A stretch of DNA of 63,522 nucleotides, filler included, from Hausera hauseri (taxonomy: Eukaryota), in assembly GCA_046269625.1 (NCBI GenBank). It is 11 parts of 11 records of this genome, joined end to end, with 100 filler letters (N's around TTAATTAATTAA, not from the genome) between each part and the next. Parts side by side here need not be neighbours in the genome. Positions count along the whole stretch, not along the records: positions 27,174 to 31,421 come from JBJURY010677328.1; 10 more parts are not named here. One strand, 5' to 3'. The notes beneath the pieces are model-generated. The model searched no databases and was not told where the DNA came from. It saw only the letters and a program-made list of their open reading frames with translations. This document shows, one piece after another, positions 6,909-51,399 of this stretch (within the stretch, counting starts at the first letter, position 1; the number at the start of each line of letters is the position of its first letter). Made by a program: the position numbers and the translations under genes.

Positions 6909-6914
6909 CAGCGA

Positions 6915-13755: not shown

Positions 13756-14214
13756 GGCTGAGCTGGGTGGGGGTTGTTCCCATTCACTTGACTGGGGTCT
13801 GGTAACACTGCTCTGCAGACTTTGGCTATGTGCCCTTGTTTACAGCATCTGAGGCATGTCACAGTTGAGATTTGGGCTCGGATTGGAGGCTCTGTGGGTG
13901 CCTGGACTTGTGGTGGTAGGACAGGCAATGGAGCAGCAACTCTTGATTCAAGATTGGTCAATTTGGTCATCTGCTCTGCTTGGCAAAGAGCTAACTTTTT
14001 AACCAGTTCTGTGAGCTCTGACAATTCTGATGCATGGGTGGTCTTCTCCACATTCACAGTTGGGCTGCTGCCTGATGCAGTCTGGATCTGGGTGTGAGCT
14101 CGCTTTGATTTGTGGAATGACTAGAACTTTTTAGTTTCTTTGGTCATGTCTCTGAGCCTACAGCTCTCGGAAGTTTAAGAGCCTGGGCTTAATGGAGTGA
14201 TTCTCATATATGCT
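13743..14214 (-). CDS. gag: Gypsy gag C-terminal part with CCHC zinc knuckle
   Basis: CLRCCKQGHIAKVC; overlaps start of pol frame. Confidence 0.85.
13749..13755 (-). promoter_or_regulatory. -1 ribosomal frameshift slippery site T TTA AAC (gag-pol)
   Basis: CCT TTA AAC GGG TAG at gag end, followed by a GC-rich potential stem-loop. Confidence 0.75.
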
Positions 14215-14314: not shown

Positions 14315-16350
14315 TTGCATGTTGCCCCTCGATATACACCTGTAAAATGGCAGTGATTCTTGACTTTATAATTTTCCTTGGTGAAGGACTTTTTGCACAA
14401 GTAACATGTTGTTGACTTGCACCATTCATCTTCTTGTTTTCACGACATGCTCATATTATTCTTATGATTCTTACGCACGTTTTCAAGCTTATGAGCCATG
14501 TCTTCGAGTCTCTTCATGAAATGTGCTGCTGCACCTGGGCCTCTAAATAGAAATGGTTCACTGTGCATTCCTTTGGCATACATGCAATATGATGAGAGTT
14601 CATGATATTGGTGTGCCGTTGTGCTGCTATGTTGAGGACTGGGCGTGCATGTCTGAACTGACTTAAGAATGACTTCAAAGTCGCAATGGACGACAATTGG
14701 GACCTTCATCTTCTCGAAGTCCTTGAATTCAATGTAGTCCTCCCTGGGGAATTAACAGTAATTGTTGTTACATTACATTTTGTGCTCTTCAGATTCTCCA
14801 CAGCTAACTTGCCGCTGAAATGAGACAAGCATCGTATACATATTTCTATTTGTCCATGAAGATTTGTAATTTGGGATCCTACTAGACGTTTAAAATTCTT
14901 GATCCATACGTAATGTTTCTTTCTCCACCGTCTAGTAGGAGCAGATCCCTATTATCTTTCAATTCAGCATCACATATCTGCAGGGGATAGAATTTGTCAT
15001 CATCGTCCAATCCAATGATGTTGATGGATATATTGTTGATTCGACTGAACTTCTTGACTTCATCTATGGATGGTGGGAACTTAATGCATTGGAAGTCAAA
15101 GTTGTGCTGCAGATCATTATATAGCCAAATTAGATTTGCTGCATGTTTTTGATCCCGTACGAGTTTACATAAAATGGCACACATGAAACACTTGTTGTCA
15201 TCATTAAGGACATTGACACATGCTATTTTATTTGCGATCCAATTAGGGAGCTGAATATATGAACTACCCCGTATGGGAGAGTACTTGTGAACATACACAA
15301 GCAATCTCTTGATGGTTGTCAGAGTCCATCCACTCTTCTTATTCTGGCTGTCCTTATCTTCCTGGATCAGCTTCTCGTGTGCCTCTTGCATCCATTATGC
15401 TATATTGGTGTTTTCCCATATGGGTCTATTTCTGGTCTTGAAGGCCTTTTTGGACTCTTCGCCATTAACATTGACGTATGTGGCCTTAAGTTTCATATTC
15501 ACGTTAAGTTCCTTGAGCTCAGCTATGCTGTCCTGGAGAATCCCTATTGTTTCTCCCTCTGTGTACTCCATGAACTCCTTGATGGTTGTTAGACCCGCTG
15601 CATCAATGACATATTTGCGGACTTTTCTCTTTAATGCTGTAGCATTAAGAGGCCTCTGTTTTTGGCTTTTTGGTGGAGTCGTTGCGCCTGATGCATCTGA
15701 TGGGTCTGATAGGCCTGATGCGCCTGATGGGCCTGATGCTCGTTTTAGTCCTACATTTGGATGTACTGCTGCATGTGGCTGTGATACTGATGCTGCAGGC
15801 TGTGCTGCTGCAACTGACTTATGTTCACTAAAAATGATCTTCTTTGACTTTGATGAGAAGTCTGTAAATGATGCTCTTGATCTTCATAAAACTGTATGTA
15901 TTCTCCATCATAACAGTCTCACATCCTGGGCAGATATAATGGATGATCGTATTAAATTTGTATCCATAATAGCTCCTCATAGTATTGCGGCAATTATGAG
16001 GGTTGTGTATTGCACATGTGCAATACACATGTGAACTGCATCTTGGATTTTCCTTTCGCATGAAAGTCATTATTGGCATATTGGTACTGAATATTTATTT
16101 TTTTTGACTTGGTAAAGGAAATCAAGTACTGCAAATGGATATTGTTAAAGTCTTCATAATTGGTTTGGCTCACTACCTCACATGTAGGGCATATATAATA
16201 CTGAACCTTGTTGCATAGATGGCTAAAGTACTTTTTCATAATACTATGACAATTTTCAGGCTCATGGATTTGAGCCAAGCATTCTCTGTAAAGTTTGCAT
16301 ATCTAAGAATTAACCAATTATTTGAGGAGCACAATTAAAAATCTCGCCAT
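14315..16350 (-). pseudogene. Polinton/Maverick pPolB, N-terminal part (family A, copy 1)
   Basis: SGWTL..I..L.V..YSPIRGSSYIQLP..I..K.AC.NV.N.DNKCF; PIVVHCDFE; HQYHELSSYC; homologous to 46379-49702. Confidence 0.9.
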
Positions 16351-17783
16351 TCGTTGAAGTGATTTTGGAAATAATATATCAATATTACCATGTACTGCCC
16401 GCTTAACGATGGGTTTTAATGCACCAATTAAATGCAAGTGGGCGCCAAATTCCATTAGGAATTCATAAATGGGGAAACCAATGGCGCCATTAGATTCTTC
16501 GAATGATGTGTGCTTGATCGAATATTCGAGTTCGAATAGCTAAATATTCGACTTGAAAGCTCGAATTCAAATATCTAACATCATATTCCGATTGCCATAT
16601 ATGATTTCCTATTCAGCCCCGCTATTAGCCCCGCTTCACTGAGCTGTAAATGCACATTTTGCTTAATTCGAAATAATGATTTTATATCTATATAGTTCAT
16701 TTTCATGGAATAATTTTTATTCATCAGGTTTTCATATATGAGGAATCGATTGCCGTTGTTAAATTTTTCGAATAGTTCGAAATTCGATATTCAAGCTCGA
16801 TAACATTCGAATTTCGAATATCTGAATTAAGATTCGAGATCACCATACTCGATTTCCTATCTGTCCCCGCTAAATGTTGTATCGAATTTTGACTCCCGGG
16901 GAGTCTGCACCAGTTGCAGTTTGGATCGATATTATTCGAAAACTAATTGATAAATTTAAATTCTAACTGCACATTCATATACTGTACCACGTTTGTGTTC
17001 CAATGCATCCGGTCACATGTCATAATCATCAATACTGGAATTATGGGAAATCCAATATTATTGATTTTAGCACACTTGCACATGTGCTGTGCACCTGCAC
17101 AGTGCATGTCAACATGCATCTCAATGTGCTAAATCTAATTCCACTTAACCCAAATGGATTCCATCAATCCTACGCTGCAGTGACAAATATGTGAACTGAA
17201 AAGTGCCTTATCAACCGCATCCAACAGGACACTTGATTCGAGTATTTTACTGAACGATAGTACATCAAGTACTCTACCCGCCAGTATATGTGCCATATTG
17301 ATATTATTGATTTTCATTTTATAGCTGAAAGGCCTATGTGAAGTCTGTCCCAGTTGTCAATTATTCGAAAACCAATCAATATTTTTAAATTCTAACTGCA
17401 CATTCTCATAGTGCATCATATGTGCTTTTGATTTCACCGGGTGCGGGTGCTAATTATCAATATTGGAATTATCGGAAATCCGATATTATTGATTTTTGCA
17501 CACTTTTACATGAGCTGCACACTTGACTGTGCACCAAACGATGTGCACTAATGTGCACTATCTATTAGCACTTTGTACCAATCGATTCGATCAATTGTTT
17601 TAATGTGCAGCGATCGATTTTTTAAATGTTCAAAAATGTGCTAGCAACGGAGCCTAGCGGTACCGTTGCCTAGCACAGTACCGATCGATATTACAGTGTG
17701 CACTATCGATTGGCACATGTGCCAAATTAATTAATCGATTAACCCCTCCGGGGGTCGGACAGAATTTCCATTTTTCCCCTACT
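16350..17783 (-). mobile_element. Polinton family A terminal (TIR) region; terminus 5'-AGTAGGGGAAAAATG at 17783
   Basis: Homologous to 49700-51167 and 57020-57269; homology ends sharply at ...CTACT; internal ~430-bp tandem duplication. Confidence 0.85.
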
Positions 17784-22548: not shown

Positions 22549-22900
22549 ATGGTAAAGGTGTTAGAGCAAATGAAGAAATTTCAGAAGAAATAGTAATTTC
22601 TACAGAAGACGATTATGTGCAAATTGTATCGTTGACATCAAAATTACTAAAGCAAGATCCNNNNNNNNNNNNNNNNNNNNNNNNNNNNNNNNNNNNNNNN
22701 NNNNTTAATTAATTAANNNNNNNNNNNNNNNNNNNNNNNNNNNNNNNNNNNNNNNNNNNNTATTACTGTTCTTGGTATTATTTTACCTCCATTTATACTG
22801 GTTATCAATGCCTCTTTTGGAGCGGATGGATAAAACATCAGCTTCATATGTTTTGGGTCATAATTGTCTGTCACTTGAACAATGTATATCTATATATTCA

Positions 22901-25565
22901 TTAGGAGACAAAGTGTTGTTCCAATAGGTACTCATTCCATCTTCTCATTTGAGAAATATATGATAGTAAAGTCCGTCGTTTCTTACTTCTGGCAGTGATT
23001 AAAGTCCATGTTCTTCTAGTGTTTTCGATGGGTTTAGATCTTTTCTCCTTTATCTTCTTTGGTGAGAGGTTATTTTCATCATTATTATTATCATCGTCAT
23101 CATTCTTGTTTTTGTTTTTCTGTTCCCATTCAGCATCCTTTTTTATCAGGAAACAGCTGGCTATGAATGGAATTAATGCATAAATAGTTTTCCATGCACA
23201 TCCGGCAGCTTGTTTAATGCCGTATCCTTTAGTTATCATGGTCAATATCGCTTTTATAAAGGCAAAGATATAATAAAATCCTATCCATCCAGAATTAAAT
23301 TGACCAAAAGACATATACCATCCCCATGCGGTCGCAAATATATCTTTAGCTATTTTCTTGGCATATTCTGGTCCCATCAAATTTTCCCAGTTAGCTTTCC
23401 CGGTGTGATCAACTAACACTCTCATTGCCATCTTTGTTAAAATTTTCTGTCTCTTTTGGGGGAACATCATCATTCTTCTATGATTTTCCATATCTTGTTC
23501 GCAAGACACACCCATCTTTACCAAATCTGTCAATGGCTTGTATGTTTGTTCGGTCTTCAAATTGATTAAACTAATCCCTCGAGGTAGAGTAATCTGCTCC
23601 TTTTTCGGCATTCTTATCCATAAATTGTCGCTTAATCAAAATGCTGGCGACATAATATATGTACAATTTTCATGTACATATGGTTTCTCCATAGGATCTA
23701 ATAATATACGAGTAATTGGTTGCAAGAAACGTGGCTTTTCCTTGTACCAAACAAGTAACTCCATGGTACAGTCTGTTGTTGGTCTCAGTTTGACAGCTAC
23801 TTTTGTACATTCAAAAGTTACAAGTGTCTCACCCATTGTTCGAGAGAACTTTCCTTCTGCATCGGGAGATTCAGCTGGATCTTTTATTATTCCGTCCGTT
23901 ATCGCTAATAGATATATTCGGTTTCTAATTATCTCTCTGTTGATTATCTGTTGATTATATCTCTGTTGACATAATTGATACCAGTTTGCTTTTCCAGTGT
24001 GATCAGCTAACACTCTCATAGCCATCTATGTTAAAACTTTCTGTCTCTGTTGATGGAACATCATCATCCTTCTATCTTTTTCCATATCTTGCTCAGCGTA
24101 CACACCCATCTTTACTAAGTCTGTTAATGGCTTATATGTTTGTTCAGTTTTCAAATTAATTAAACTAATCCTCCGAGGTGGAGTGATCTGCTCCTTCTTC
24201 GGCATCCTTATCCATAAGTTATCGCTTAGTCGGTATGCTGGCGACATAGTGTATGTACAATTTTGGTGTACATATGGTTTTTCTGCCGGATCCAATAATA
24301 TCCGGGTAATTGGTTGCAAGAAACGTGGCTTTTTTTTATACCAAACAGGTAACTCCATGGTACAATCAGTTGTCGGCCTTAATTTGACAGCTACTTTTAT
24401 ACACTCGAGAGTTACGAGTGTTTCGCCCATTGTTTGAGCAAATTTACCTTCTGCATCGGGAGACTCAGCGGGATCTTTTATTATTCCGTCCGTTATCGCT
24501 GACAGATATATCCGATTTCTAATTATCTCTCTATTCAGCTTACAATCATTTAATATTATCTCTCGATACATAGCATAAATATTTTCTTGTTGGAAGTGAT
24601 AAATAAAATCGATCTTATTATCGAAGTAAAGATGAGGCTTTACTTCTGATTTATCAATCTTCCTCTTAGCTTTTGTTATTTCTGTTGTGGATAAAAATAT
24701 CCCTTTATAATTTGTTCAAAATATCGTGTAATCACATCTGGTATCACTTTCTAGTTTAAATCTCATTCAATCTTGAGGATTTACTGAATATACTATGGTA
24801 GGAGTCTCAATCATATCCGATATTCGATCTAGTCTACTCTAAGATATTTCTTCTTTATACATTCGGCCTTTTGTTTTGTTAAATTTTCCTAGCTTTAAAA
24901 GAGCTAACTGAAATTAATCTCTCAACTTCATATGACATAATTGATTCACCAGTGTCGCATTATTTATTATAGTAATCACATTCAGGGAATGTCGTCATCG
25001 TCTCTGAGTATAGTTCGAAGAGGGCATCGTATTCCCTCAATTCAACTTGATAATCTTCTATGGCCACTATATTGTCTAAAATTTCACCACTGATATTGTT
25101 GGACTCACCCTTAAAATATCCTGTATTATCAATTGTCCCGGCAACAAAAATTCTTTTATTAATGATTTTTCCTTTCTGATCCTTCAAACGAATATTTCCT
25201 ATATTGATCTGTTTTGTTACAAAAGCCTCTATACACATTTGTTTACATACAGGAAGTGGCTGGAACGGAGTGGTTGGTACAACTATTGCTGAGTTTTGAT
25301 ACCAATATTCACAAATAAAGTGAAAATGATTTTGTCGATCAAAACATTCTTTCACCTTAGTTTTCACAAATTCCGACTCTTAATAAACGTAGTATTCTTT
25401 TCCGATATTGTAGTTAATGACTCCGGATTGGCCAATTGACATTTTTCTAAGTTTAGTAAGGAATGTATAGGACCTTCCTTAACTTGACTAAAATCATAAG
25501 CAATGATTGAAAGTGCTTTGGGCATCAGGCTAAACAGAAGGAGTATAGGTGTAATTTTTGTTAGC
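22901..25565 (-). pseudogene. Chuvirus-type (class III fusion-like) envelope glycoprotein, disrupted, with internal 594-bp duplication
   Basis: Signal-like ILLLFSLMPKALS then IIAYD..SLL.LEKC; MYREIILNDCKL; GETLVTLEC.KV.VK.R..DCTMELPVWY..FLQPITRIL; C-terminal hydrophobic segments. Confidence 0.85.
23387..24534 (-). repeat. In-frame tandem duplication (period 594 nt) inside the glycoprotein
   Basis: GGATCTAATAATA at 23694 vs GGATCCAATAATA at 24288; near-identical peptides in ORFs 24026-24571 and 23636-24025/22901-23611. Confidence 0.95.
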
Positions 25566-27073
25566 CATGATAAATCGAAATCTGTTTGTAGATTTCGTTG
25601 GCTCACCGATTGTTGTTGTGGACGATATTCTGTTCGTTGTTGTGTAATTGGAGCCGATTCATGTATTACTGTATGAACCAAACTGGTAACCCATCCACCT
25701 CTACATTCTACACATCCTTCAACATTGGCCTTTAAAGCACTTGTAGCAATTTCTATATTTCTCCCTATCTTTGTCCCGTTCGGATTTACTCCATTCATCA
25801 CCAATACCTTACACAAGAGATAAGATATGGCTGTTACGATTTTATTTCCAGATATGCCGGTGCCCATCATTCTAGATATTATATCTCTTTTCTAGATTTC
25901 ATTTATCCTCTGATTTTTTGGGATATCTGCAAATTGTTCACTAATCTTTGCGACCTCATTCTTTATAACATGCATTAGTGAATCCGGTATTTACAGATTA
26001 GTATTGAACTCAACGAATGCATTGTGCATTCTTCCTAACAAGGTATGTAGTAATGTTGTCAGTAATACATTATCTACGTCATATTCATCTTCTGTTGTTA
26101 GCAATCTTCGAACGACTTCGTCATCTCTGGCTTTCCTACCTTTCAACTGATAAAGTTTCGTCGTTCCTTTTGATCTGCAACGGTTTCTTTTATCTGTTAG
26201 CATTTGTTCTGATATAGACATATTCAATCCCGTTTCTATTTGTTGAACCTCATGCTGATGTTCGATTTTCCGTTTTTCTTTTCGCCTAAAATCGGTGATA
26301 ATATCGTCAATTATTTCTTGTTCTGACTGTTTATAAGTAATACACACAGGATTGTATCGGTTTTTCCAAATACCTACTTCATACAAAGTTTCATGATTCA
26401 ACAGAGTGCGTCCATAGAAACGTAACTCTATTTCTCCTCGAGGCTGAATAATCCCATTGATATTATTTTTCAATGTCATTATTGTATCCAATGACTTCAT
26501 TCTTAAAACATGAAAATCTTGGTTATACTGTTGTAGTGTAACCATTACTTCGGGGTTTTCTCGGACTGTCCTCACTCTATCTGCATATCGATAAATTATG
26601 TATCGTACGATATTCTGATATTGGCATGTACCCGCCGCATACATTAACAGCAAATCCAGTAAATTAGCAAATTGTTGATGGCTAATTGTTGGCGATAGTA
26701 GCATAGACAGATCTTGCCTAAACCGAGTACTATTTATTATTTCTTGGTTGGCATAGCTGGATATTTTTCGAACTATTTCTACGCCATCCTGATCTATTTC
26801 CACAGATAATAACTCATAACTTGTGGATTTTTCCTTTATTTTCTATTTCGTTATTCCTTTTATCTTCTCCTTGAGTGCACTTTCTTCACTGGTCTTACTT
26901 TTTTCACTTTTACTTCCCAAAGGCGGATTGAGTTCCGGAATCTTCAATTCTTCTCCTTGTATTAAAAGTTTATCCTTTTTCTTGACCCTTTTCTTTTCAA
27001 TATCCGATTTTTATGTGGGAGTCTTTTTGGGCCTACCAATAAGAACAATGACTGAGCTTTCGGCGTTCATTGT
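25566..27073 (-). pseudogene. Polyprotein segment upstream of and in frame with the glycoprotein; contains a ubiquitin-like domain (about 26333-26548)
   Basis: ORFs 25991-26803 and 25364-25870 are in the same frame (120-nt gap with stops); DTIMTLKNNI..P..IELRFYGRTLLNHETLYEVGI matches the ubiquitin pattern. Confidence 0.7.
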
Positions 27074-27173: not shown

Positions 27174-28855
27174 AATCAAGAAGGTACATTTTATCTTGCC
27201 TTTCAGAGTGATATATCCTGCCCAATGGAGCAGTGCCCACGTTGCCAACAGTTATCACCATTTTAGCATTTCTTTTATAACTATGAAGAACTAAACCAAC
27301 GTTTGTCACTAACGTAACCCCGTTAACGATGCTACATTAACAATTAAACCCAGATCACTCGGTTACATCGATGTTCATACTGAGACTGATTCGAAGGACG
27401 GAATCTTTCTTCTAAGGGGCAGAAATGTTAAGGTTTGTTAATTAAGGCCTGAAAACATTTCGAAAACACGAAAATTCCAAAAACATAAAACATTTTTAAA
27501 ACATGAAAATATAAACAGATCGAATTAACAATTACTGAGGCATTAACACTGATCCTGATTTATCCATGCTTAACAATATTTTGTGATTCAAAAATCAAGA
27601 ATGATTTAACCGAGACTATGTGAATATTCTGTGATTAATAGTAAATCCTTGTGTACATAAATGTCCTTTATCTTTTAATTTTGTTAAACTTTTGATGGGT
27701 GTCTCCTCCGTTTCTCTGCACTGTACCCAAATTGTATCGAAAAAGCGGCAAAGTAATAAATTGATTAATCAAACTGGTAGTAAAATGCTTGGTGATAAAT
27801 TGTGCCAAGGGTTCAGTGTGTATAAGTATATTTATCTTAAAAATTATAGATATTTTATTTCCTTATTATTTTGCAAAGATTATTTCTATTATAGAATTGA
27901 AACTATTTTTATATTTTTAAATTTTGGGAATAAGACAACCGTGTGATTATGATAATATAATTTTGGTTGTCAATCTTTTAAATATAAGAATTAGTGTATG
28001 ACTTGTGGCGAGAGTTTATAGAGAATTCGCATACTACATTATGACTGACACGTTTTGAAGGCCGACGTCTATGAACCGAGCAAGAGGTTAATTGAGAAGA
28101 TTGTTAATGCTCATTAACAAATGGACGAATTTCAATATGTGGTTGTTCAACTTAAGCTTCAGAACAAGATGACTGTTGATAGTGAGTTATTTTGTTGTAG
28201 GGTTATTTGAAGAATTAAAAGTACGATTATTAGCATTGAAATTTAAATTGCCACACATCAGTTATAAATTTAGGCAGTATAAATATTGGTTCAAAGAAAA
28301 GTATCTTAATTTCTACTTTTGCAAACAACTGTCAGACGTATTTAAGTATATGTACAAATGGTCCAAACCATTCGTCACTTGAAAACTGTCACGACGCAAT
28401 GAAAAAATATGTTAATTATTTATATGTTTAAATTTAGTGAGTTGCTTGTGGAAGAGTAAGAAGATTGCTTAATTAGCACAAGTTTTCTGTTAACTTGGCT
28501 TCACAAATTTATTTAGAAAATAAATAAATAACTCCAAAGAGAAAAGTTATATTAAAACCACAACCGAACCAAGTAAATATAAAACAAATAGATCATAAAC
28601 AGAATACTCACTTATTACTGATCGGTCGAACTCATAAAATTTGTGGTTCAAAAATCATAAAATTTATGTTGTGTTGTATTGCAGTTTTACCAACTATTAA
28701 ATAGTTATTTGCCAGCTATTTTTAGGTTCAAAATAGTGGCAGAGAAAATTTACAGGAACAGTATGGTAATTTATTTATAGATTGTATTTAGTCATTTATT
28801 TTCAGAGTTCCCCGATCAATGGTTAAAGTACACAGTACACAACATTCCCCGACCC
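27174..28855 (-). mobile_element. PPT and start of a long 3' LTR (LTR begins at 28844; distal end not located)
   Basis: Minus strand GGGTCGGGGAA|TGTTGTG about 290 nt after the ORF stop; same arrangement at 45567. Confidence 0.65.
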
Positions 28856-29139
28856 ATAAAAATACGCATGCAAAAATAAAAAGGGGAAACAAAGATACAT
28901 AAGAGGTATATAAATACAAAATGAAAGTCACGAAGGAACAAGAATTTCAGTTAGTGAATAAGTAATGTTCATATACAAAGTGATACAATTAAAATGAAAT
29001 GAGTTTACAAAATATACAGGTGAAAATCAATGTCACGATCAAATGTTAATGTTAATGTTCTCATCTGATTATTCAACGACGATATCTGATTTGTATCTGG
29101 ACGACGAAACTGAATAGGAACTGATCTGGTTTTTGCTAT

Positions 29140-31421
29140 TTAATCATCAAGATCCACGTTTTCATAGTCGATGCGCGATTCGATAAAATCTTCTTTTTCG
29201 GGTTTTGAACCTTGTCTGGGCCGTTCTATTGGGATCAATATGGGTTGCTTCTGTTTCATTAAGAGCAGGTATTTGATGTGACCGTTAAAAAATGTCTCCG
29301 TAATAGCATCAGAAGTTAGTGTAGTATCCAGTCGTATCCGTAGCTTCGTGTTTAGTGAGATTCCATAATTTATGGGTAAATTTAACACTGCTACTGGACT
29401 CCGATAGGGAATAATGAAATAATGATTATTGGGCCTCTGATATATCATGCCAATAAGAAGGTTGTTCTCTGTACTCCATTTGTATAATTTTCTTGAGGAG
29501 ATGGTATCCTTTAAAAAATATGGTCGATCGATTCTGTGAATTGGTACCGGTAGATTCAGGAAATTCTTTTTTATTATTATTCCGAAGTTAAACTTTAATT
29601 CTTCCTTATTAATCAACGTATGTTCAATTTGCAGGGCCAATGTTTCGGTAGGGGACGGTTGAGTTTGACTTGCCATGCTAATCGTTTTTACTGGGTAACG
29701 CCAACGTCCAAGTTCACTTTCTTCGTCATCTTCTATGTTCTGGGGGGCCAGTATCTGCTGGATATCCATATTATCAATTATATCCTCTTCATTATCGCTT
29801 TCGGCGTCTTGTATTTCCACATTTTCTGGTGTAGCCAATTCTAAGTCTTCTTCTATGAAATCTTCCTTGCTATCGATCAATTTTTGGCTATTTGTATTAA
29901 CTACCTCTACTTCAATTTTGTGGACCCATGCAAATTCTTGTAGATACTTCTCTCTGCAGTAAAACAATTCTCCAACGTCTACTATGTTTTCATTTATCTT
30001 GTCAGGTGTCCAATTAGGTTCGCGTTTGATATCTGAAATCTTCTGAAGGATATCTAAAGCCAATTCCAGTTTCCCGTTGGTATTTTGTTCGTACATTTGC
30101 CCGTTCCTATGTTTTGGTAATCTTAGCTCCCTGGCTACATTCGTTATGTCTATTGTATTGAACGATACTCCGGTGACATCCGGGTGTTTCAATAGGTCAA
30201 TTGCACCAGCCAAATAATTTGATGGCACCTCGAACATTTGTAATGCTCGGTGTATGTCCAGTCCGATGACAATTGTTCCGAAAAGCCATTGAATGACTTC
30301 TTTTGAGACTTCGAAGATATCAAAACCATGGGCTTGTAAGGATTGAAAATCAATACCGTGCCTACCGGTATTGCAATTATGCACTCTAACTCTGTTCACA
30401 ACCAGGGAATGGTACAATATTTTACCCTTGATGTTTGTTATGGTCACTTCTAAGGGCAGTGAAGTATTATCCGGTGAAAATCCAAAGGATACCGTTAGGA
30501 TTCTAATTGTAGCTGACTGGCTTGTTTGCAGGTAATTTAATCGTGCATTTGCAATGTATTCAGGCGGAGTTTGAACTAGGACCATAGGCCTAGGTAAGGA
30601 TAAATGTTTTTCTGGCAAAAGCCATTCCAACATGATTACTAGAGGGATCCGATTCGGCCGGATTTGAATTAAATCTACACTCATGGGTGTATTTATAGCC
30701 AGTGATTCTTCCTCGAAGATGGTGGAGATATTGGATAGCGTGTATTGCGAGTTCTTTTTAGTTTTTAGAACGGCGGTTCCACGTGCCATATGTAGAATCA
30801 AACCATCTATTGATGGACATTCTGTGATAAATTCGTCCATATTTCTTTGCTTGGGTTCTGTTACAGTGATTATTTTTGCATGTCTATTGACAGTGGGACC
30901 ATACTTCAAATGATTCGGTATTTTAGATATTTGCGGGAACAACAATTCTGGATAGATTGACGCCTCACGTCTTATATGATTGTAGAAGGATCTCGCCATG
31001 GTTTTGGTAAAGGATGAATTTTTGGCTCCGTACTGTGCCAATAACTGATCGATGGGCAATATATCTGCATGGAAGAGAGGAAAATTTGTGGATGAGATAG
31101 TTTTATGGTGAATAGTATTTTCTGCTCTCATTTCAATCATGTTTGGTTTGTACTGATCTTGAAAGTTTTGTTTTTGGACTGAGTGTCGTTTTGAAATCTG
31201 TATTGAATTGAACTGACGTTTGAGTTTGTTTTGGTTTGAAAAAGGGACTGAATAGAAAAATTTGTCAAATTTATACTTACTTTTTGGTGTCGTTGTGCTG
31301 TCTGGTAACCAGACCAATAATAAAGCTGTAAAAATGGGACCTATTGTGCGTGGCGCATATGTGTGCATGCTAACTTGCGATGACATCAGCTGTGGCTGGT
31401 CACGCGATTTTAGCGGGCAGT
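29140..31421 (-). CDS. Large accessory protein (>748 aa, 5' open) with a degenerate DEDDh/REX4-like domain, acidic linker and conserved C-terminal domain
   Basis: Uninterrupted ORF; EVTITNIKGKILYHSLV..NTGRHGI..EVSKEV..GTIVIG resembles the REX4/ISG20 core; C-terminus homologous to 45880-46278. Confidence 0.8.
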
Positions 31422-31521: not shown

Positions 31522-34500
31522 TCTTTATTATTACCTATCCTTTGTCTGCAAGTGTTTATTATTCTTTTTCTTTCTTCTTTAAATGGTCTAGCTATTTCAT
31601 CATCATCTGGTAATTCACAAAATATTATATGATACCGTATTGCATTCAATTTACCCGAAAATCCACTTGCGTTTACTGTATCAAATTTATCTATATCCAT
31701 ATAATCCTCCGGGGTTAATATGGTGTTCACATCTCGTTCTAAGTAATCGTTCCATACTATCCGTGCTTCGTCTTCCTCAAAAAGTTTTATATCTTCTCGA
31801 ATAAGATCATCCTTTATAGCCATAAGTGCGTAAGTCATCCAACAATTAATCGCATAAGTTTCAGACTGAGAATTAGTATGTAACTCCTCACTATAATATC
31901 TAAACAGGTCCAAGCATCGATTAGCTCTCTTTGTTATTCATTTCGGAGTTCTACTTGCTAGTAATTTCGGAGAGAGTCCTCGAAGATAGTTAGTTATACT
32001 AGTTATAGGGAATGATTTAGTTATACCAGTTATAGTAAATTACGGTGGTCTTTTTTGCAAAAATGAGTAATTAACATTCGTTCTCTTCGACTTCCAATAA
32101 ATAGGGGTAGATATTTGTTTCTATCTCCGTATACTATACTTTCTTCATATGTTAGATCATTTTTTCTATTAGAAAATCAAATGATCGAAGGAAACAAATT
32201 ATCTGTGGTGTAGAATGACTTTTTAATCGAGCCTTTATTAACGACTCATGTTTTGGACACATAGGTTCATTACCTAATATTCCAATCATTTCGTTCCATG
32301 TTCCTATCACGATTTTAGTTGGTTGTAACCATATGGGTTGTAATTATATTTCCATTATAACTCGTTGTAGTAGACAAAATCCTTGATAGTATACCCTAGT
32401 TTGAAAATCAACCCATGGGCTGAATTTTACATCATCTATCGGAATCTTGTATGAGACGTATAAAAGACTGGATATTAAAAGTAGTTAATAATCATAGGTT
32501 GATTTCTTAAAATCTATTCCTGTTTCTTGTCTTAGTCGATTAAAATATGATTCATATAGAATCATATACAGTTTCATGAAGTTTTCTGTAACCTCATGTG
32601 GTAGTTGATCTATACTACCTTGCAGTAGTAGACAGTTAACAATATGTCTACGTCGTTCTCTAGGTGTTTCCCCGTATATAAGAAGTTTTGTATCAGGATA
32701 ATCGGGATAAAGTAGAGTGGCATAGTCGGTTTTTGGTTCAATATCGTCTAACGACTGTTCGTTTCTGTTGGCGATAATGCGCAAATTCGTTATTGTGTTT
32801 GGGATATCTTCCTCTTCTGGGCATATTCTTGTTGAATTTATCGGAAAGTGTGGTGGTTTATATACCAGTCTATACAACTCTTGGTCCATTTCTTCCCTTA
32901 ATGATGGAAGATTTACTGGGTTTATTCTTAAGGTATTTACTAATCTAAAATAGGGAATTACTTGATTAGCCATTGTATAATTATGTATTCCTTCATTATG
33001 GTAGCCAAAATCGTCTTTGTCTCATGTGTCGTTACTTTTGGTATCAGATTAATAGCCTCTCGTATTGCCTCTATTAGCTCTGGTGCTACATACTTTTTAA
33101 TTTTATATGGTTCCGTTCACTTCCATTTTTATTTAATTCTTCCATAGCCTCCTGTAGTGGTTTAGGTAGCTTCCTCCATTCTTCGTTATTAGCGTAATTT
33201 TTCCTCCCTTTCTTCAAAGGAAGTTTATATGTAGAGTTAATAATCTTCCAGCTTACTCTTTGATTTGGAAATGGCAATCTTTTCCCTAAGTGGAAAGAGC
33301 ATTCATGGATTATATTCTTCTTCCTATAGTCTGTCATTATTTATGTTAGATTGGAATAATCATCTTCAAATTGTGTTTGTTTTTGATGTTGTTTTTCAAG
33401 TAATCGTTGATTTGATGAAGGATCCAGGTGCATCTCCTCCAGTGGAAAACTTGAAGGTACTTCTTGGACATGATCTACTTTATTCTTACTGACTTCGTTG
33501 TTTGTTTCTTTATTTCTCCCCAAGAATTTATCATTCTTGTTATTATGCGGAAAATTCCTGCGACGACTCATCTTCCTATACTTTTTGGTTACAAATGTAT
33601 TCTTCACGCTGCCTTTTGAAAGGGTCAGCTAACACTTGATAATTGTTCAACATGCAGAACAACATTCTATATCGTAAAGCATTTAAATTGCCTGTTAGTT
33701 CCTTTTCATTTACTTGTTCCAGCCGATTAATTTCGATACTATCTTCCTCTGTTAACGGCGTATCCTCATTCCATTTCTTCTATTTTTTCTTTCCTTAATT
33801 CGTCTTTTATTGTCATTAATATATAAGTCAACCAACAATTAACCATAAACATATCGGATGTTGTCCTATTTATCAATTCTCTTCCGAATTTCCTATATAA
33901 GCCAATACATCTCTTTCCTATTTCTCTACCTTTCCTTTGAGTTACAAATTTTTCGCATAATGGAGACGTTTGCCGTAATAACATAAACATATCTATATTG
34001 GGTAGTTGCATTTTCTTCTCGCTTGCAGTGTTAATAAAAAGAATTCTTTCTTGCGCGCTACCAATAAACAGAGGTTTGTATCTTCTTATGTCCCTGTAAT
34101 CGGAATAAGCTGATATAAGTGAGGTTTTCTTGTTAGGTGTTAATTTATGGCTATGATTTCATGATTTTTATTGTAGATGTAATGTGTCGGCTCCATATTG
34201 GAATAAATTCGATTTGCTTGTGCTTCACTATTCATCCTTAACGTTCTCACTAATTTGTCATAATTCAGACATTCTCTGAACGTTTGATAACCATAAGGAA
34301 ATCGGAAAGAGGATTCCATTGCACTTACTTTGGGTTCATCAATTATGAGAATTGTATTATCCATATTTCCAGTCATTTCAAATTCTTGTTTACCATGACG
34401 TCTATTTCGATTGAAGTTTGGGGCGCACACAATTCTTCATTCACCAAAACATTTATCCCAATTGAAGTTTGGGACGCTTACGATCCTTAAAAATTCCATA

Positions 34501-36781
34501 CTGGTTAAAATACATAAAACTTTACTTGGTGGTAGTCCAGTGTTTAAGGGTTTTTTAGGCTCCCCTTCTTCGGGTATCTTTACAAAATTATCCATCTAGA
34601 TATTATTGTTAGGTTCTGTTAAATCGTCATTCCGTTCAGCTTTGCCACTGCCGCACAACGAGTCCCCGTTTTCTTCCATTTTCGAAGATTCTTCGCTGAG
34701 GTAAATACAGGTGTTTTGCTTCTCGAAAGTGTTTAATTGTTGCATCTCTTCCGTTGTATGAATCAATTCCTCCTTTTTCTTACTTAATCGTAATTGACAA
34801 TTACTTATTACGTCCTCTCGTTCCTTTTTGTACATTGCAGCCTTCTGCTGATTATCGTTTAGCAAGCAGAACAATAATCGATAACGTAAGGCATTTATTC
34901 TGCCCGACATTCCCATAACATTTACTTGTTCTAGTTGATAGATTTCTTCCCTGCCTTCCCTGGTTAATAATGTATATATATATCTGTATAGAGAGAGATA
35001 TTCCACAGTATTCGAATTTCTTCTTCTTCTATTTCCTCCATTTCTTGCCTTTTCAATTCATCCTTTATTGCCATCAGTGTATAAGTCAACCAACAGTTGA
35101 CTATAAACGCATTAGACGTTCTTTTATTCACCAGTTCTCCTCCAAAATTTTGGAATAATCCGATACATTTTTCTCCTATTTCTTTGGCTTTTTCGTGAGT
35201 TACATACTTACCACATAATGGAGTCGTTTGTCGTAATAAAGCAAATGTATTGATAGTAGAAATTTGTGGTATTTCTTTTCTAAAATAATGAATAAGAAAA
35301 TTTCGTTCTTGCATACCACCAATAAACAGAGGTTCGTACTTTAGCAGATGGCTTGAACAATTCGATATCGTCCACTGTTCTTCATTATCATTCTCATCGT
35401 AATCAACTGATTTAGATTTACTTAATCTCCAATTAACAGTATGGGCATAACGGATTAGTTCTATCGGAGTAAATATTTGATTAGATAACCATATTAGCTC
35501 ACATATTTCTCTCAAATCTTTTACTAATTTATCGTATTCTATGCAATTGCGTATTGACTGATATTCATAAAGGAACTCCAAGGGTGATTTTTTCAAATAT
35601 TCCGCTCGTTTTTGTGTCGATGTATTAGTGAAGGTGTAATCAGATCCCATTTTATATCATCCGCAGAAACTTGATTTGACATATTGTCCATTCCTTCACC
35701 AACAGTATATGTTCCATTTTCTTTCTCATTATCGGGTGTGTCCTTTAAAGGATTTGAGACTTTTATTACTTTCTCTCGTTTGGAAAAACATTCATCAGAT
35801 TTGTCGTCGTCATTACTAAAGAATTTGCCCATCATCAACAATGAAAGTATCCACAATAATATGGAGGTCCATGAAAAATTAGGGCGATGAGATGTAGCCT
35901 CAACTGCCTCTTCTGTACTAATCGTAGAAAGCAAGCATATTCCCATAAGGAACAACGTTCCCAATGAAAATGTAAAGTAACCTTTGATACCTAATGATTC
36001 GCGCTTTTTATCCTTTTCTTGAAGGTCTTGGATATGCATTGATCTTGTTTCGTTAGCCATTTTGTCCATATATTTAATGCTATTTCCTGCAAATTGTAAT
36101 CGATCTATCTTCATCCATTGTTCAGGAGGAAGATTACTATCTAATGGCTGTCCCATTCTTCTGTTCCAAACTCGTTTAACTTCCTCTACCCCGTTATTGA
36201 GTTTTCTACCTCCTATATTTATATTGTGATGTTTAAAAATTTTTATTGCTCGAGTAGTTGCTACATAATCATGATGTTGCGATCTTCCTTGACTAGCTAA
36301 ATCAGGAATCGTATAATATACTTCTTCACAACTTATCTTTAAGAAAAATTTGTCCAGAGCGGTTAATGCATTAGAATCCAATTTTAGGTCTTCGCAAAAT
36401 AATTTTATTATGGGCTTATATTGTTCATCTGTTATTCCGCACTTTTCGTGGTATTTACTAAGGAAATTTCTTAATTCCGTTACACTATTTATAGGTCCTT
36501 TGAGTAATTGTTGTGCGTGATTTATGCGTTCTGGAGTAGCTAACAGGAAATTCTCCAGCCTGTGTCGATTAGCTGCCTCTCTGGTCAATGGGAGTGGTGG
36601 CAAGTTCCCCCCTTTCTGTTGAGGTAATTCGAAGTAATTCTGTTCAGTTGGTTTGACTTCTTTGCGTTGTATCTGTTTAGTAGGGTCTATTTTCCTTAGC
36701 TTAGTATCGTTATACTCAGGGAATTTTGGACTTTCTTCTGATTGATGTTTTTCAATTTCCTCTCTTAGTCGTTTAATATTT
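31522..36781 (-). pseudogene. Decayed large polyprotein: two hydrophobic helices followed by 3-4 copies of an unrecognised domain
   Basis: Repeated PLFIG..ER, LLRQT.P, CIGL, NCW(L/M)TY.LM.IKD(E/D)L, G.SG..NA.RY..FC motifs; two TM-like stretches in ORF 35593-36603. Confidence 0.75.
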
Positions 36782-36881: not shown

Positions 36882-37617
36882 TCTTCTTTGGTTTATTTTC
36901 CAGGCTTATGTGTAAATAGATAATATTGTGATCTGATACATCTGCTGTCCCTATGTAGCACTCATTCACCCTATATCTGTCTGACTTGTTCATCAGGAAA
37001 TAGTCTATTCTAGAATGAACTTTGTGTGTAGCTGAGTAATGTGTGTACTCCTTCTCCGATCTGTGTAGGTCTCTCCAAACATCAAAAATTCCTGTCTCCT
37101 TAATTAAAATATTTAAGTCTTTTGATTTAGAGGATTTCTGTCTTTTGCTTGTTGTATCCATAGAGTAGTTTAAAACTGTGTTCCAATCTCCTGCACAAAT
37201 CAGAATTCCTTCACTTTCAGAAGCAATTTTGTCAAATATTTCTTTAAAGAAACTCCCATCACTTTTCGGTGGTGCATAAATATTTACTAGGGTAATCAAT
37301 CTATTTTCTATCTGGCATTTAATGAGGACATATCTACCCTCTTTATCTCTTTCTTCTTTTTTTAGATCAAAACTCAGAGAACTGGAAATTAATATGGCCA
37401 CTCCCCTTTTACGGCTGTTTTTACATGAACTAGAGAATACGTTAAAGTAACCAAATTTTTTTAATTTGTTATGTTCTTCTTTGGTCATATGTGTTTCCTG
37501 TAGAAATATTATCTGGGTCCAATCTTTTTTCATTTTAGACATAACTCTGCTCCTCTTGACTGGATTTCTCATGCCATTTACATTTACAGATGCAATTCTT
37601 AAGCTATTTGGCCCCAT
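36882..37617 (-). CDS. LINE-1 ORF2, APE endonuclease domain (3' cut by contig end)
   Basis: SVNVNGM, FLQETH, RGVAIL, EGRYV, NIYAPP, GDWN, DVWR, SRIDYFL, SDH. Confidence 0.96.
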
Positions 37618-38016
37618 TACTTACAAAATGATTTTCTACCTAGACGTGGACCCCTTTTAAACCACACATAGATGAACATAACAATGCAAGTGAACATATG
37701 AACAAAGCATGCAAATATTTTAACAAAATAAAAATAAAAAGATAATAAAATAGGAACAAACTGACCTCCAAGGTTAGAGGAGGCTTTTATTTCCTCCTCA
37801 ACAATGACCCCGTTGGTAGGTCGGGGAAAAGGCCTTTCGTTGAGAGAGGGTTCCCCATAGAGAGTGACTGCGGTGTGAAACACCTCTGCCATCCTTATAG
37901 TCCAACGTTAATTATACAAAGGTCAAAAACGCTCTCCCGAGAACATAATGAATTATACTGACCCTCTGTCATGTCCAAATCAAATAAGATAAACCTCTGT
38001 CTATTAAATCCTGGTT

Positions 38017-39007
38017 TTATATTTTCTTACTGTGTCCCCTATGATACTCCTGAAGTTTTTCTCTAGCTCTCTGGGCGGTGGATGGTGCCTTCCCTCTTTG
38101 ATTCACCTGTTGCCATCCCTGTAGTTCCCGGAGCCGTTTTCCTGGATCGCTATCCTCCTCTGTGGGTTCGGGCTCCTCCACCGGGAATCCTCGAGTTTTC
38201 ATGTCCCGTAACACTTCCCGTGCGCTGTCGTAGCTCCGTACTCCGGTGCTCCAGTGGATTCTCATCTTGGTGAAGGGTGTTTGAAAGCGGATATTTTCTT
38301 CCTTTAGCATTTTATTTATCCCTGTGTACTCTTCTTTTTTTAACGATCTCTGCCGGGTAGTCGTGATCAAAATACAAAGTCTTGTTACCCATCTGGATCT
38401 TTGCTTTTTTCCAAGCTTCTTTCAGTACCAACTCCTTAGTGGTAAACTCTTGGAAGTTAATAATAATGAGTCTCGGCTGTTCCTCTGGTCGGGGTTTTGT
38501 GGCTAGAGATCGGTAAGCTCGTTGTATTTTTAGGTCCAGGTCCGGGGGTATAGTTAGCTCTCTTCGCAGAAGTTTTTCAATGAATTGAAATACTGAGTTC
38601 CCCTCTTCTCCCTCCGTTACTCCGAAGATGCGCATGTTGTTTCTTCTGGCTCTGGCCTCCAGATCTATGAGTTTATGCTGTAGAACTTTTTGCTGGTCCA
38701 AGCTGTTACATAGCTCCTCGGTTACCTCCGCTGCCCACCGCTCCACCCGCTCCACTCGTGTCTCCATCTCGCCCACTCGTTCCGACAGAGTTTGTACCTC
38801 TGTTGTCAGGCTGTCGAGTTTAACTTTAATTTCTTGACCAAGTTGGTTAATTTCACTTCTCAGATTCCCATTGTCCCCTTTAATGTCTTCTTTTAGTTCC
38901 TTTACCGCTGTTAATATATCTGCAGGGTCCATGCTAACGTGGGCGCTAGCATGTGTTGCTTCGGCTTTAGCTTTCGTCGAGTTTCCTTTGTCCTGAGGTT
39001 TTGGCAT
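38017..39007 (-). pseudogene. LINE-1 ORF1p (Transposase_22 type), one frameshift near 38330; teleost-like
   Basis: Coiled coil, DLEARARRNNMRIFGVTEGEE, IQRAYRSL, YFDHDYP. Confidence 0.93.
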
Positions 39008-41059
39008 ATTTTGAAAGGTAGATTTTTGATTTTTGATTTCTAAAGAGTCTTTTCCCCCCCGGGCAACTGTCTCTGTGACAGATATTTAGCTGTCGAGGTA
39101 TTTAGGGTGGGTTTGCATATCAATCTGGGAGAGCGATTCTACCTATGTCTGGCTACTCCATAAGTTGAACCGGAAGTCAATCGATCTCAGAAATTTTAAA
39201 TATTATAAAGCCATCTTTTGGTACTTTTTGCAATCTGGGCAGATGCCAAGTTTTACTGGGAAATGAAATCAACATCTTCATAAAGCTTGTCAGCAGAATC
39301 TATGTAATGAAGATATGTAAAATGTACTTTCTGAAATGACTGACAAAAAAAATTCACCCTTTTTACGATATGGGCACAGCTAATGGCCCATGCACCCTTT
39401 CCTGCAGTGTAGGCACTTATGCTTGATGCTTAAGTTGCTGCAGTATTCTCTGAAAGGACATGTGGGAGTACACTTCATAACTTGTAAAATGTTATAAAAA
39501 GGAGGAAAAAAACCTTGACAGAATAACAAACTGAATGGAGAGCAGCGCACACCGCTTGTGCAGTATTAAAAAACAGTGAAACCAAGTGAGAATGGATTGA
39601 TTGCATCAGCGTTGGTGCACCCACTCTCACTTGGGTCAAATATAAACCTAGCTTTACTCTCCCTCTCTTTATTGCCGTCAGATGGTGGCATGAATTTATC
39701 ATAACTCTGGTGAATAGTTTGAAGTCTTTACTTTTGACACAAATTGGTTTGCCACAGTTTTGCACCATGCTGACCTGCTAGCTGGCTGTAAACTGTGTAA
39801 TGAATCGCACGAATGGATGTCTCATTAAGCAGTCAGTATGGTCGCTCGACTGGCGACGGGTCGACGCCCGGTCACGTGGTTGTTGGGCATTCGTTTTCGC
39901 ACAGACCTTTCATAGTTTCCGAGACTCCCCCGCGCCGAGCTCCTGGGAAACCCCTCCCGCTTTAGCATACGTCACTACATGGAGTTTCTCCCTGGCGGAG
40001 GAGTCCAATGCAAACAAAAAAAGTAGACTTGTCATCCAACGTTGTTTATCTACAATTGGGTCCTGGATTATAAGCTTCCATGTTTTTATCAGACAGATTC
40101 CACCATGAAAAACCATCTGTTTTATCCCCTTTTCAGAGTTTTTGGCTGTTTGACTATCTTTTATAAAATCGCTGCTTCCCAGTCTAAAGTCAGCTTTGGA
40201 AGTGAATCGTTTTTTTTTTCTTTTTTTTTTTTTAGAAGCGTGTTTGAAGCAGCGCTTTCAGCACTAGAAAACACTCCCACAAACTTCTGGCCAATCACAC
40301 AGTGCAGTTCGTATGTGTTCTCATGTGGAGGGGGTGAAAAGTTCGACCCGCGGGTTGCGACAAGACGTGCCGATATTTCGACAATGCAAACTGAATGACG
40401 TAATTTTCGTCATGAAACTGCAACATTTCGGCAGTTCGGCTGCAGCATACTGGAGCCTTTACTCTGCATCTCATTGAGATACTCTGTATTTCCTGAACTG
40501 CTTTCCACAGTTTTCCGACAGCTCAAAGAGCAGCTGGAAATGAATCATTTCAGTTATTTTAGCAGACATTAAACCATCAACATGGCTCATGCATCGGAAA
40601 TCCCCGCAGGTTGGATTGGAACTTTCTATCCATGAGTTATGTTGAATCAGAAACTGATACTAATACTGGATCAGACCAGCCCCATCCCTAAAATAAACAT
40701 ACAGTTTTACTGAAGTTGAGAAACCATCTTTTAAAGCTCATACAGCTCTGTAATTAAAAACTTTTACGTATTCACACAAACTGTTCTCATGTGGACAGGG
40801 TCGTAGACTTGTAATAGTCAGGACCAACAGATAAAAATGCTCAATTGAATTAAAAAAGTTATTTATTATGAAATGTCATTGTAATGTTTGATGCTTTCAT
40901 TTAAATTCTGTGTATTTTTGTTTTTATCTGGTTGCAAAGTAATCTTTTTTCTGAAGACAGGTTGAGTTTGATAGACTGAAGGAGAGGAAACTCTTGTATT
41001 ATGGAACAAAAGCTTTGACTTCTGTACTGAAGTTCTCTTGCATTATGTTTTGACTGTAG

Positions 41060-45879: not shown

Positions 45880-46278
45880 TCATCCATCGAGATCCACACT
45901 CTCTTGATTGATTCTGGTATTAATTACATCGTTTTCATCTGGTTTGTATCCTGCTCGAATACGTTCAATTGGTATTAAAGTAGGTTGTGATTGTTTTATC
46001 AGCAGAAGGTATTTCAAATGTCCGTTATAGAAAGTTTCAGTTACTGCATGAATACTATTTGGCGTAACAGGTTTAACTTTTAGTTTTGTACTAAACTGTA
46101 CTCCGTACTTTACGGGTAGTTTTAGTACAACGGTCGGACTTTGATAAGGTACCAAAAAATATTGATTATCAGGTCTCTGATATATTCCTCCAATTAATAT
46201 ATTCCTAATCGAATTCCATTTTGATAACTTTCTGCAGGAAATAGTTTTGCTCAAATAATATGGTCTTTCTATTTGGTG
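45880..46278 (-). CDS. C-terminal domain homologous to the end of the 29140-31421 protein (partial)
   Basis: LIG.IYQRP.N.YF..PY.SP..VL.LP..YG...TKL...TETF.NGH.KYLLL.KQ.QP.LIPIER...VDLD shared by both. Confidence 0.9.
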   Translation of the reverse strand, partial: HQIERPYYLSKTISCRKLSKWNSIRNILIGGIYQRPDNQYFLVPYQSPTVVLKLPVKYGVQFSTKLKVKPVTPNSIHAVTETFYNGHLKYLLLIKQSQPTLIPIERIRAGYKPDENDVINTRINQESVDLDG

Positions 46279-49300: not shown

Positions 49301-49702
49301 ATAGATGTTCCTATTGAATTTGTATCCATAATAGCTCCTCATAGTATTGACAGTTCTGAGGGTTGTATATTGCACATGTGCAATACACGTATGAACAGCA
49401 TCTTTGATTATCCTTTAAAGTCGTTATTGGCATATTTGCACTGAATATTTGTTTTTCGATTTGGTGAAGGTAATCAAGTGCTGTTTATGGACATTGCAAA
49501 AGTCTTTATAATTGGATTGGCACACTACCTCACATGTAGGGCATATATAATACTGAACCCTGTTTTATAGATGGCCAAAGTACTTCTTCATAATACTGTG
49601 GCAATTTTCAGGCTCGTGGATTTAAGCTAAACATTTGCTGTAAAGTTTGCATATCTATAAATCAACCAATTTTTTTAGGAGCACAATTAAAAAATTCACC
49701 AT
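46379..49702 (-). pseudogene. Polinton pPolB (family A, copy 2), decayed
   Basis: GSSYIPLP, PIVIHCDFES, VRDQCHFTG.YRGA.CN.CN, VFHNLSGYDSH, RKGVFPYDY, YLDANNLYGWAM, FEKDKFKL..SVFGKTMEN. Confidence 0.95.
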
Positions 49703-51345: not shown

Positions 51346-51399
51346 CTGTGATGCAAAAATCCAACTCAGTGCAGTGTATCCGTGACACTTGACGAGATA

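What the first reader, a model, noticed from the sequence alone, without database searches (positions are those of the whole stretch)
29140..31421. Intact retroelement accessory ORF with a catalytically dead DEDDh (REX4/ISG20-like) domain
The segment at about 30040-30510 follows the REX4 pattern, but ExoI D-x-E reads TVS and the ExoII Asp appears absent. The ORF is still uninterrupted for >748 codons among otherwise decayed neighbours. Inference: a pseudo-nuclease retained for RNA binding or as a decoy or silencing suppressor. The C-terminal domain (IGMIYQ..YFIIPY..LNLP) has an OB-fold-like pattern, which is speculative.
Basis: partly seen in the sequence, partly recalled or inferred. Interest (0 to 1): 0.7.

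Follow-up and report, generated by a model that had tools for sequence, protein, structure and literature searches.

The report
Retrotransposon-borne dead ISG20-like nuclease gene
A multicopy animal retrotransposon carries an extra gene whose protein has the shape of an RNA-trimming enzyme but has lost all its cutting residues and is still kept intact by selection, so it probably serves the element as a binding protein rather than an enzyme.

Summary
The core observation holds. The minus-strand frame 31419-29140 is open for 759 codons; the likely protein starts at 31140 (666 aa).

The ORF ends about 295 nt before a purine tract plus TG LTR-like start, seen again behind a second copy. Relatives lie at the 3' end of env-carrying, Burro-like gypsy elements. 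Four of the 9 relatives keep an intact D-E-[D/E]-H-D site; five lack ExoI acids. Read variants are mostly synonymous (23 of 34).

Corrections: the 'decayed neighbours' are unlinked contigs joined by spacers. The C-terminal OB-fold idea is untested. RNA binding and silencing suppression are inference only.

Verdict: a new variant of a known kind (retroelement accessory exonucleases): a DSBH-DEDDh fusion with a conserved pseudo-nuclease form.

The parts
29140..31140 (-). Likely coding sequence, 666 aa (frame open back to the contig edge at 31419)
   Evidence: homology starts after this Met; indel and skip upstream of it in other copies
30613..31020 (-). Double-stranded beta-helix (cupin / 2OG-Fe(II) oxygenase-like fold), residues ~41-176, no H-x-D/E/H motif; family-conserved Y53, IPNxLK 74-79, R86, H117, G121, R161, E/D172
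30025..30513 (-). ISG20/REX4-like DEDDh fold without catalytic residues (T216, S218, A299, no ExoIII His, K357)
29641..29940 (-). Acidic linker (27 D/E in 100 residues), probably disordered (inference)
29143..29550 (-). C-terminal ~135-aa domain of undetermined fold, 58% identical to the second copy
   Evidence: no hit
28845..28855 (-). Polypurine-tract-like motif directly before a TG start
   Evidence: 2 matches in the window, one behind each copy; 0 of 100 shuffles gave any
28410..28844 (-). Probable 3' LTR (~435 nt, TGTT...AACA); the far end is inferred
   Evidence: sequence; repeat boundary at 28403-28413 in reads and depth drop from 97 to 0.8 in run X1
31248..31280 (-). GTAAGT...TTCAG 33-nt mini-intron-like stretch with a splice-acceptor-like end; overlaps a TATAAA/TCAGT pair, so a promoter reading is also open
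   Evidence: 10 of 10 relatives examined have a YAG 0-4 nt before their ATG
31313..31421 (.). Very high-copy segment at the contig end, joined to a different sequence in other contigs; nature unknown
   Evidence: depth 29,862 in the last bin of X1; loose ends at 31313; no Rfam hit
45880..46278 (-). 3' end of a second, diverged copy of the ORF on another contig
   Evidence: pN 0.25, pS 0.83 over 131 codons
45562..45578 (-). Purine tract and TG start behind the second copy

Best explanation
This is the last (3'-terminal) accessory gene of a multicopy Ty3/gypsy LTR retrotransposon family, most likely of the env-carrying, Burro-like kind. SHOWN: the protein is a DSBH domain, an ISG20/REX4-type DEDDh domain with none of its five catalytic residues, an acidic linker and an unknown C-terminal domain; relatives with the same two-domain core exist in intact and dead forms; the frame is under purifying selection. 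INFERRED: it is made from a spliced subgenomic mRNA. An ancestor of the element took up a host REX4/ISG20-like 3'-5' exonuclease, and this branch turned it into a non-catalytic binding module. Most likely it binds RNA or RNP of the element, or the host RNA-decay/piRNA factors that attack it, and shields the element's transcripts, working like Maelstrom, EXD1 or Exuperantia pseudo-nucleases but for the transposon's benefit. My odds: retroelement gene ~0.85, catalytically dead ~0.92, shielding/binding role ~0.4.
For: Fold and lost residues. Family: 9 hits at E<=0.001 among 1.84 billion representatives, best stretches all within query residues 108-455; 4 of 9 keep D-E-[D/E]-H-D, 5 of 9 lack the ExoI acids. 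Context: 11 loci. L001 has a 3012-aa env-PR-RT-RH-IN polyprotein upstream; L002 has RING and TRAF/MATH ORFs upstream; L005 has a PBS-like motif and gag downstream. 9 of the 10 loci with downstream DNA show a common C-run-GAGA-ATGT motif after the ORF, read as the LTR start. Another window contig encodes an L001-like ubiquitin-like/env region (E 1.5e-53), so such elements occur in this assembly. Selection: 23 of 34 listed in-frame variants are synonymous against 34% expected, p 6e-5; copy 1 vs copy 2 pN 0.25, pS 0.83; none of the 12 listed indels (of 25) falls in 29140-31140. P229, G239, R250, G262, D274, G293, G312 stay conserved in both dead and intact rows.
Against: No pol, gag or second LTR lies on this contig, and all 11 loci with context belong to the intact group, at 17-28% identity per domain. 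Their pre-LTR motif differs from the window's, and L001 lacks it. Nothing here shows RNA binding: the domain has 16 K/R against 16 D/E, and pocket-side residues kept by all four intact lineages (Tyr at 256, Glu 265, Gly 270) are lost here. Only 4 of the 34 scored variants fall in the DEDDh domain (3 synonymous), so selection on that domain itself is weakly tested. The 40 rows shown are the best-supported of 407. One contig in run X2 skips 386 nt inside the ORF, so broken copies exist. A single origin of the dead forms is neither shown nor rejected (support 77/85, long branches).
Confidence: 0.55

Rival explanations
1. The dead DEDDh domain is a protein-interaction or decoy surface, not an RNA binder. 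It mimics a host REXO4/ISG20L2-type nuclease or scaffolds host factors, in line with the RING, TRAF/MATH and ubiquitin-like cargo of these elements.
For: Neutral charge and eroded nucleotide pocket; neighbouring accessory ORFs in relatives are host-signalling domains; an inactive-looking DSBH resembles vaccinia C16 N-terminal domains (8ag3, E 3.9e-4), recalled as a protein-binding immune modulator.
Against: No partner is identified. R250 is invariant in all 19 rows, which would also fit phosphate binding.
Confidence: 0.25
2. The nuclease domain is a vestige. Selection acts on the DSBH and C-terminal domains, and the DEDDh part survives only as a folded spacer in one reading frame.
For: Residues shared by the dead rows are largely Gly/Pro/structural; the C-terminal half of the domain is divergent and poorly modelled; most scored variants lie outside it.
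Against: The domain is full length in all dead rows that are complete (5 of 6), across very long branches; its identity to relatives (17-28%) is no lower than the DSBH's (17-25%).
Confidence: 0.15
3. It is still a nuclease, using substitute acidic residues (for example D223, E231, D295).
For: E231 is shared by 4 of 6 dead rows; the ExoIII region is low-confidence in the model.
Against: All five canonical positions are changed. A Glu on that strand is the non-catalytic 'EIG' type in DnaQ proteins and D295 matches a non-catalytic Asp of ISG20 (both recalled). I could not inspect the model's coordinates.
Confidence: 0.05
4. The ORF is not part of a gypsy element but of another repeat or an expanded host gene family.
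For: No pol on the contig; an unexplained very high-copy segment sits directly upstream; DEDDh accessory genes also occur in KolobokD DNA transposons (PMC9587614, passages).
Against: Purine tract plus TG start behind both copies; repeat boundary at a ...AACA end; relatives in LTR elements; no introns in the coding part.
Confidence: 0.1

Closest known systems
ISG20 / ISG20L2 / REXO4 DEDDh 3'-5' exonucleases
   Different: All five catalytic residues are absent here; fused to an N-terminal DSBH; carried by a mobile element.
DEDDy ORF3 of bdelloid rotifer LTR retrotransposons (Juno, Vesta) and Athena/Terminon elements (PMC5408684, passages)
   Same: 3' accessory exonuclease ORF of an LTR retrotransposon; the ExoII acid can be Glu (DEED there, also in most intact rows here).
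   Different: RNase D-like DEDDy rather than ISG20-like DEDDh; invariant residues reported intact; no DSBH mentioned in the passages seen.
Burro giant gypsy elements of planarians (PMC6431247, passages) and GAG-ENV-POL gB-type errantiviruses (PMC13524379, passages)
   Same: Relative L001 has env in frame before PR-RT-RH-IN with a weak ubiquitin-like match; L002 has RING and TRAF/MATH accessory ORFs.
   Different: The Burro passages list no exonuclease or DSBH ORF; the eLife main text has no 'exonuclease' or 'dedd'. Linkage of the window's own ORF to such a polyprotein is inferred.
KolobokD DEDDh accessory nuclease (PMC9587614, passages)
   Same: Transposon-encoded DEDDh domain.
   Different: DNA transposon; similar to Exuperantia/TREX/ERI1; proposed to be active.
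Host pseudo-nucleases Maelstrom, EXD1, Exuperantia
   Different: Host genes (Maelstrom and EXD1 act in piRNA biogenesis), a different DEDD subfamily; here the carrier is the transposon and RNA binding is not shown.
Cupin / AlkB-like 2OG-Fe(II) oxygenase fold; vaccinia C16 N-terminal domains
   Different: No H-x-D/E...H motif shared by the family; about 10% identity; cupin and 2OG-oxygenase matches are tied, so ancestry is unresolved.

Membership tests
DEDDh exonuclease (ISG20/REX4 type) | RNase H-like DEDD fold | tested here: met
   (model built from a 19-row family alignment)
DEDDh exonuclease (ISG20/REX4 type) | Sequence homology to the subfamily | tested here: met
   transitive: P0003 E 6e-13 passes PF00929; profile to ISG20L2 E 1.5e-21. 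The protein alone has no hit
DEDDh exonuclease (ISG20/REX4 type) | ExoI Asp and Glu | tested here: not met
   T216, S218
DEDDh exonuclease (ISG20/REX4 type) | ExoII acid | tested here: not met
   A299
DEDDh exonuclease (ISG20/REX4 type) | ExoIII His and Asp | tested here: not met
   K357 in the Asp column, no His in the His column; register less certain, pLDDT low
DEDDh exonuclease (ISG20/REX4 type) | 3'-5' exonuclease activity | not testable with these tools
   needs an assay
Ty3/gypsy LTR retrotransposon (Burro-like) | Purine tract followed by TG LTR start | tested here: met
   both copies, 0 of 100 shuffles
Ty3/gypsy LTR retrotransposon (Burro-like) | Dispersed multicopy family | tested here: met
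   1214 records laid in X1 across four identity classes; depth 260-2341 over the ORF
Ty3/gypsy LTR retrotransposon (Burro-like) | Paired LTRs and target-site duplication | not testable with these tools
   contig ends at 31421; no genome held
Ty3/gypsy LTR retrotransposon (Burro-like) | gag and PR-RT-RH-IN linked to the ORF, env in frame before PR | tested here: inconclusive
   met for relatives L001 and L005; not on the window's contig; an L001-like env region lies on another contig
Cupin / 2OG-Fe(II) oxygenase | Double-stranded beta-helix fold | tested here: met
Cupin / 2OG-Fe(II) oxygenase | H-x-D/E (or H-x-H) ... H metal triad | tested here: not met
   no such motif in the window protein or the other 5 dead rows, none shared across 19 rows; judged from sequence, not from a residue-level superposition; H117 and E/D172 are conserved and unexplained
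OB fold (C-terminal domain) | Five-stranded OB barrel | tested here: inconclusive
   single-sequence model pLDDT 29; no hits
Rotifer DEDDy ORF3 | RNase D-like DEDDy type with intact invariant residues | tested here: not met
   intact relatives have ExoIII His; best matches are DEDDh

The most novel reading that the evidence does not exclude
Giant env-carrying gypsy elements captured an ISG20/REX4-type nuclease, fused it to a metal-less DSBH, and in a long-lived branch switched it off to make a dedicated transposon-encoded pseudo-nuclease that blocks the host's piRNA or RNA-decay defence: a mirror image of Maelstrom/EXD1 on the parasite's side, with natural active and dead versions for comparison.
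Probability: 0.2. Interest if true: 0.8.

Novelty: new variant of a known kind. Interest (0 to 1): 0.5.

Why it matters
Accessory exonucleases of retroelements have been noted but their role is untested (PMC5408684). This family supplies both intact and dead forms of one DSBH-DEDDh architecture in the same 3'-terminal slot, so one can ask directly whether the element needs catalysis or only binding. If the dead form suppresses silencing, it would be a rare animal retrotransposon counter-defence protein. At the least it adds an accessory gene and a domain fusion that I did not find in 8 literature searches. The original Burro paper was not held, Repbase could not be consulted and supplements were not read, so a prior annotation is possible.

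Tried and rejected
No genome is held for this window. Word-index protein searches: window protein, 0 hits among 6384 candidates; alignment A1, 0 of 8000 (it missed even its own members, so a failed candidate step); A3 returned only its 2 members. Viral contigs: no relatives with P0007 or the window protein. Single-sequence AlphaFold of 666 aa failed (pLDDT 29). C-terminal domain: no usable hit in the Atlas (29), PDB profile (80), Pfam (13, 85), and no likeness to the N-terminal core (81); these blanks neither support nor exclude an OB fold. DUF3244 (E 0.03) was rejected as noise. Arenavirus NP (Atlas 0.87) is a shared DEDDh fold only. Rfam: nothing at E<=0.1 on the contig (73). No long internal or terminal repeats on the contig (87). 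No RNA holder listed. Earlier scan notes: nothing. The reading that the ORF follows directly on a 5' LTR (non-autonomous element) was rejected because 31292-31421 does not match the LTR-like stretch. An internal TATA/Inr promoter was considered and remains open, but relatives point to a splice acceptor. Trees (17 of 19 rows, L001 and L010 left out as a near-duplicate and a truncated row) put the dead rows on one side without strong support. No complex was predicted, since no binding partner is claimed.

Full report
The observation. The minus strand carries an open frame from the contig edge (31419) to a stop at 29140, 759 sense codons. The window is not one locus: it is 11 contigs joined by N-spacers with a six-frame stop linker, and the finding sits on the contig 27174-31421. 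The decayed retroelement, LINE, Helitron and polB fragments elsewhere are therefore not shown to be neighbours. Homology begins after the Met at 31140. Other copies carry a 1-nt insertion at 31183 and a 77-nt skip at 31259-31337. The protein is thus probably 666 aa, and numbering below starts at 31140.

The active site. ExoI D-x-E is T216-V-S218, the ExoII acid is A299, the ExoIII Asp column is K357 and there is no His in its column. ExoIII is the least certain alignment. Among the 9 database relatives, 4 keep D-E-[D/E]-H-D (P0003, P0005, P0007, P0008). Five lack both ExoI acids (P0002, P0004, P0006, P0009, P0010); P0004 ends before ExoII, and P0006 and P0009 keep a Glu at ExoIII. All 9 locus-derived rows have ExoI and ExoII intact. 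In trees of 17 rows the 6 dead rows form one side of a branch at 77/85 support with long branches, so one origin is neither shown nor rejected. The DSBH has no H-x-D/E/H motif in the window protein or the other dead rows, and none is shared by the family. Y53, IPNxLK, R86, H117, G121, R161 and E/D172 are conserved in both groups.

Genomic context. 295 nt after the stop lies GGGTCGGGGAA followed by TGTTGT. The same motif follows a second, 58% identical copy on another contig; none of 100 shuffles gave a match. The pattern was derived from these two sites, so the force of the test is their shared position behind the two copies. A ...TAACA end at 28410 coincides with the repeat boundary in reads, giving a probable 435-nt 3' LTR. 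A metagenome scan with four intact relatives returned 11 loci. L001 has a 3012-aa polyprotein with Monjiviricetes-type fusion protein, protease, RT, RNase H and integrase upstream of the ORF. L002 has RING and TRAF/MATH ORFs upstream. L005 has a PBS-like motif and gag downstream. Nine of the 10 loci with downstream DNA show a shared C-run-GAGA-ATGT motif, read as an LTR start; L001 does not. This layout matches the Burro elements as described in PMC6431247 (passages) and the GAG-ENV-POL elements of PMC13524379 (passages). Another window contig (22761-27073) encodes an L001-like ubiquitin-like and env region. The link between the window's ORF and such a polyprotein is still inferred: no pol is on its contig, all loci with context are of the intact kind, and the pre-LTR motif differs. 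Ten of 10 relatives examined have a YAG within 4 nt of the ATG, which suggests a spliced subgenomic mRNA. In the window a GTAAGT...TTCAG 33-mer at 31280-31248 overlaps a TATAAA/TCAGT pair, and I cannot tell intron from promoter.

Selection. Three runs were laid. X1 gave 1214 records in four identity classes, with depth 260-2341 over the ORF against 0.8-21 in most flank bins, which is the pattern of a multicopy family. Of 25 indels 12 are listed, and none of them lies in 29140-31140. One low-depth contig skips 386 nt within the ORF. Of 407 substitutions 40 are listed; 34 fall in the ORF, 23 are synonymous (34% expected for transitions, p 6e-5) and none makes a stop. Copy 1 against copy 2 gives pN 0.25 and pS 0.83 over 131 codons. 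Only 4 of the 34 lie in the DEDDh domain.

Mechanism. Shown: a selected, non-catalytic multi-domain protein at the 3' end of an LTR-type repeat. Inferred: capture of a REX4/ISG20-like nuclease, loss of catalysis in this branch, and retention as a binding module. I favour shielding of element RNA or RNP from host decay or piRNA machinery (about 0.4), by analogy with Maelstrom and EXD1 (named as inactive RNA-binding DEDD derivatives in PMC5408684, passages). Against this, the domain is charge-neutral and has lost pocket-side residues kept by intact relatives. A protein decoy or scaffold (0.25) and a vestige (0.15) are real rivals, and residual catalysis is unlikely (0.05).

What is known. DEDDy ORF3s of rotifer LTR elements have intact motifs. 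KolobokD DNA transposons encode DEDDh nucleases (PMC9587614, passages). PMC6338049 (first of four parts and a term search) lists a DnaQ-like domain as a known LTR accessory domain and has no 'alkb' or '2og'. PMC8532177 (passages) shows that BURRO transcripts rise when the planarian PIWI protein SMEDWI-2 is knocked down, and has no 'exonuclease'. In 8 searches (listings only for most papers) I found no description of a DSBH-DEDDh fusion or of a dead ISG20-like ORF in a retrotransposon. The primary Burro paper was not held, no supplements were read and Repbase was not available. ISG20 residue roles, the DnaQ 'EIG' Glu and the function of vaccinia C16 are recalled, not taken from a call.

Verdict. 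It is a new variant of a known kind; interest 0.5.

Noticed in passing
window 22761-27073 (-): Broken, partly duplicated polyprotein region with a weak ubiquitin-like match and Monjiviricetes-type fusion glycoprotein, similar to L001: a Burro-like element fragment.
   Followed up: partly
window 31522-36781 (-): Several diverged tandem copies of an unknown ORF segment (NCWxTYxLMxIKDxL motif), no Pfam hit; possibly another accessory-gene region.
   Followed up: no
window 31313-31421: About 110-nt segment with roughly 15-30 times the read depth of the ORF; other contigs join it to a different sequence that also has a short TGGTNACCA palindrome.
   Followed up: partly
window 27600-27741: Another short high-depth segment in the flank (depth 4279 in X1).
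   Followed up: no
window 6861-10115 (+): Open Helitron Rep/PIF1 helicase frame of 1084 codons, starting at a contig edge.
   Followed up: no
window 11252-13839 and 36882-39085 (-): GC-richer gypsy pol and L1-like fragments whose composition differs from the AT-rich contigs; the assembly may mix organisms (impression only).
   Followed up: no
window 14315-17749 and 46379-51986: Two related broken elements (72% nucleotide identity over 3.5 kb), one with a protein-primed DNA polymerase B match: Polinton-like.
   Followed up: no
L002 1-4640: Run of accessory ORFs (two RING, coiled-coil-like, IAP-type RING, TRAF with MATH) upstream of an intact DSBH-DEDDh gene.
   Followed up: partly
P0002 residues 747-790: A dead relative carries a C-terminal RING finger, tying the pseudo-nuclease to ubiquitin ligation in that lineage.
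   Followed up: no
L002-L011, downstream of the ORF: The motif before the putative LTR start is a C-run followed by GAGATA/GAGAAA rather than a pure purine tract: an unusual plus-strand primer site if the reading is right.
   Followed up: partly
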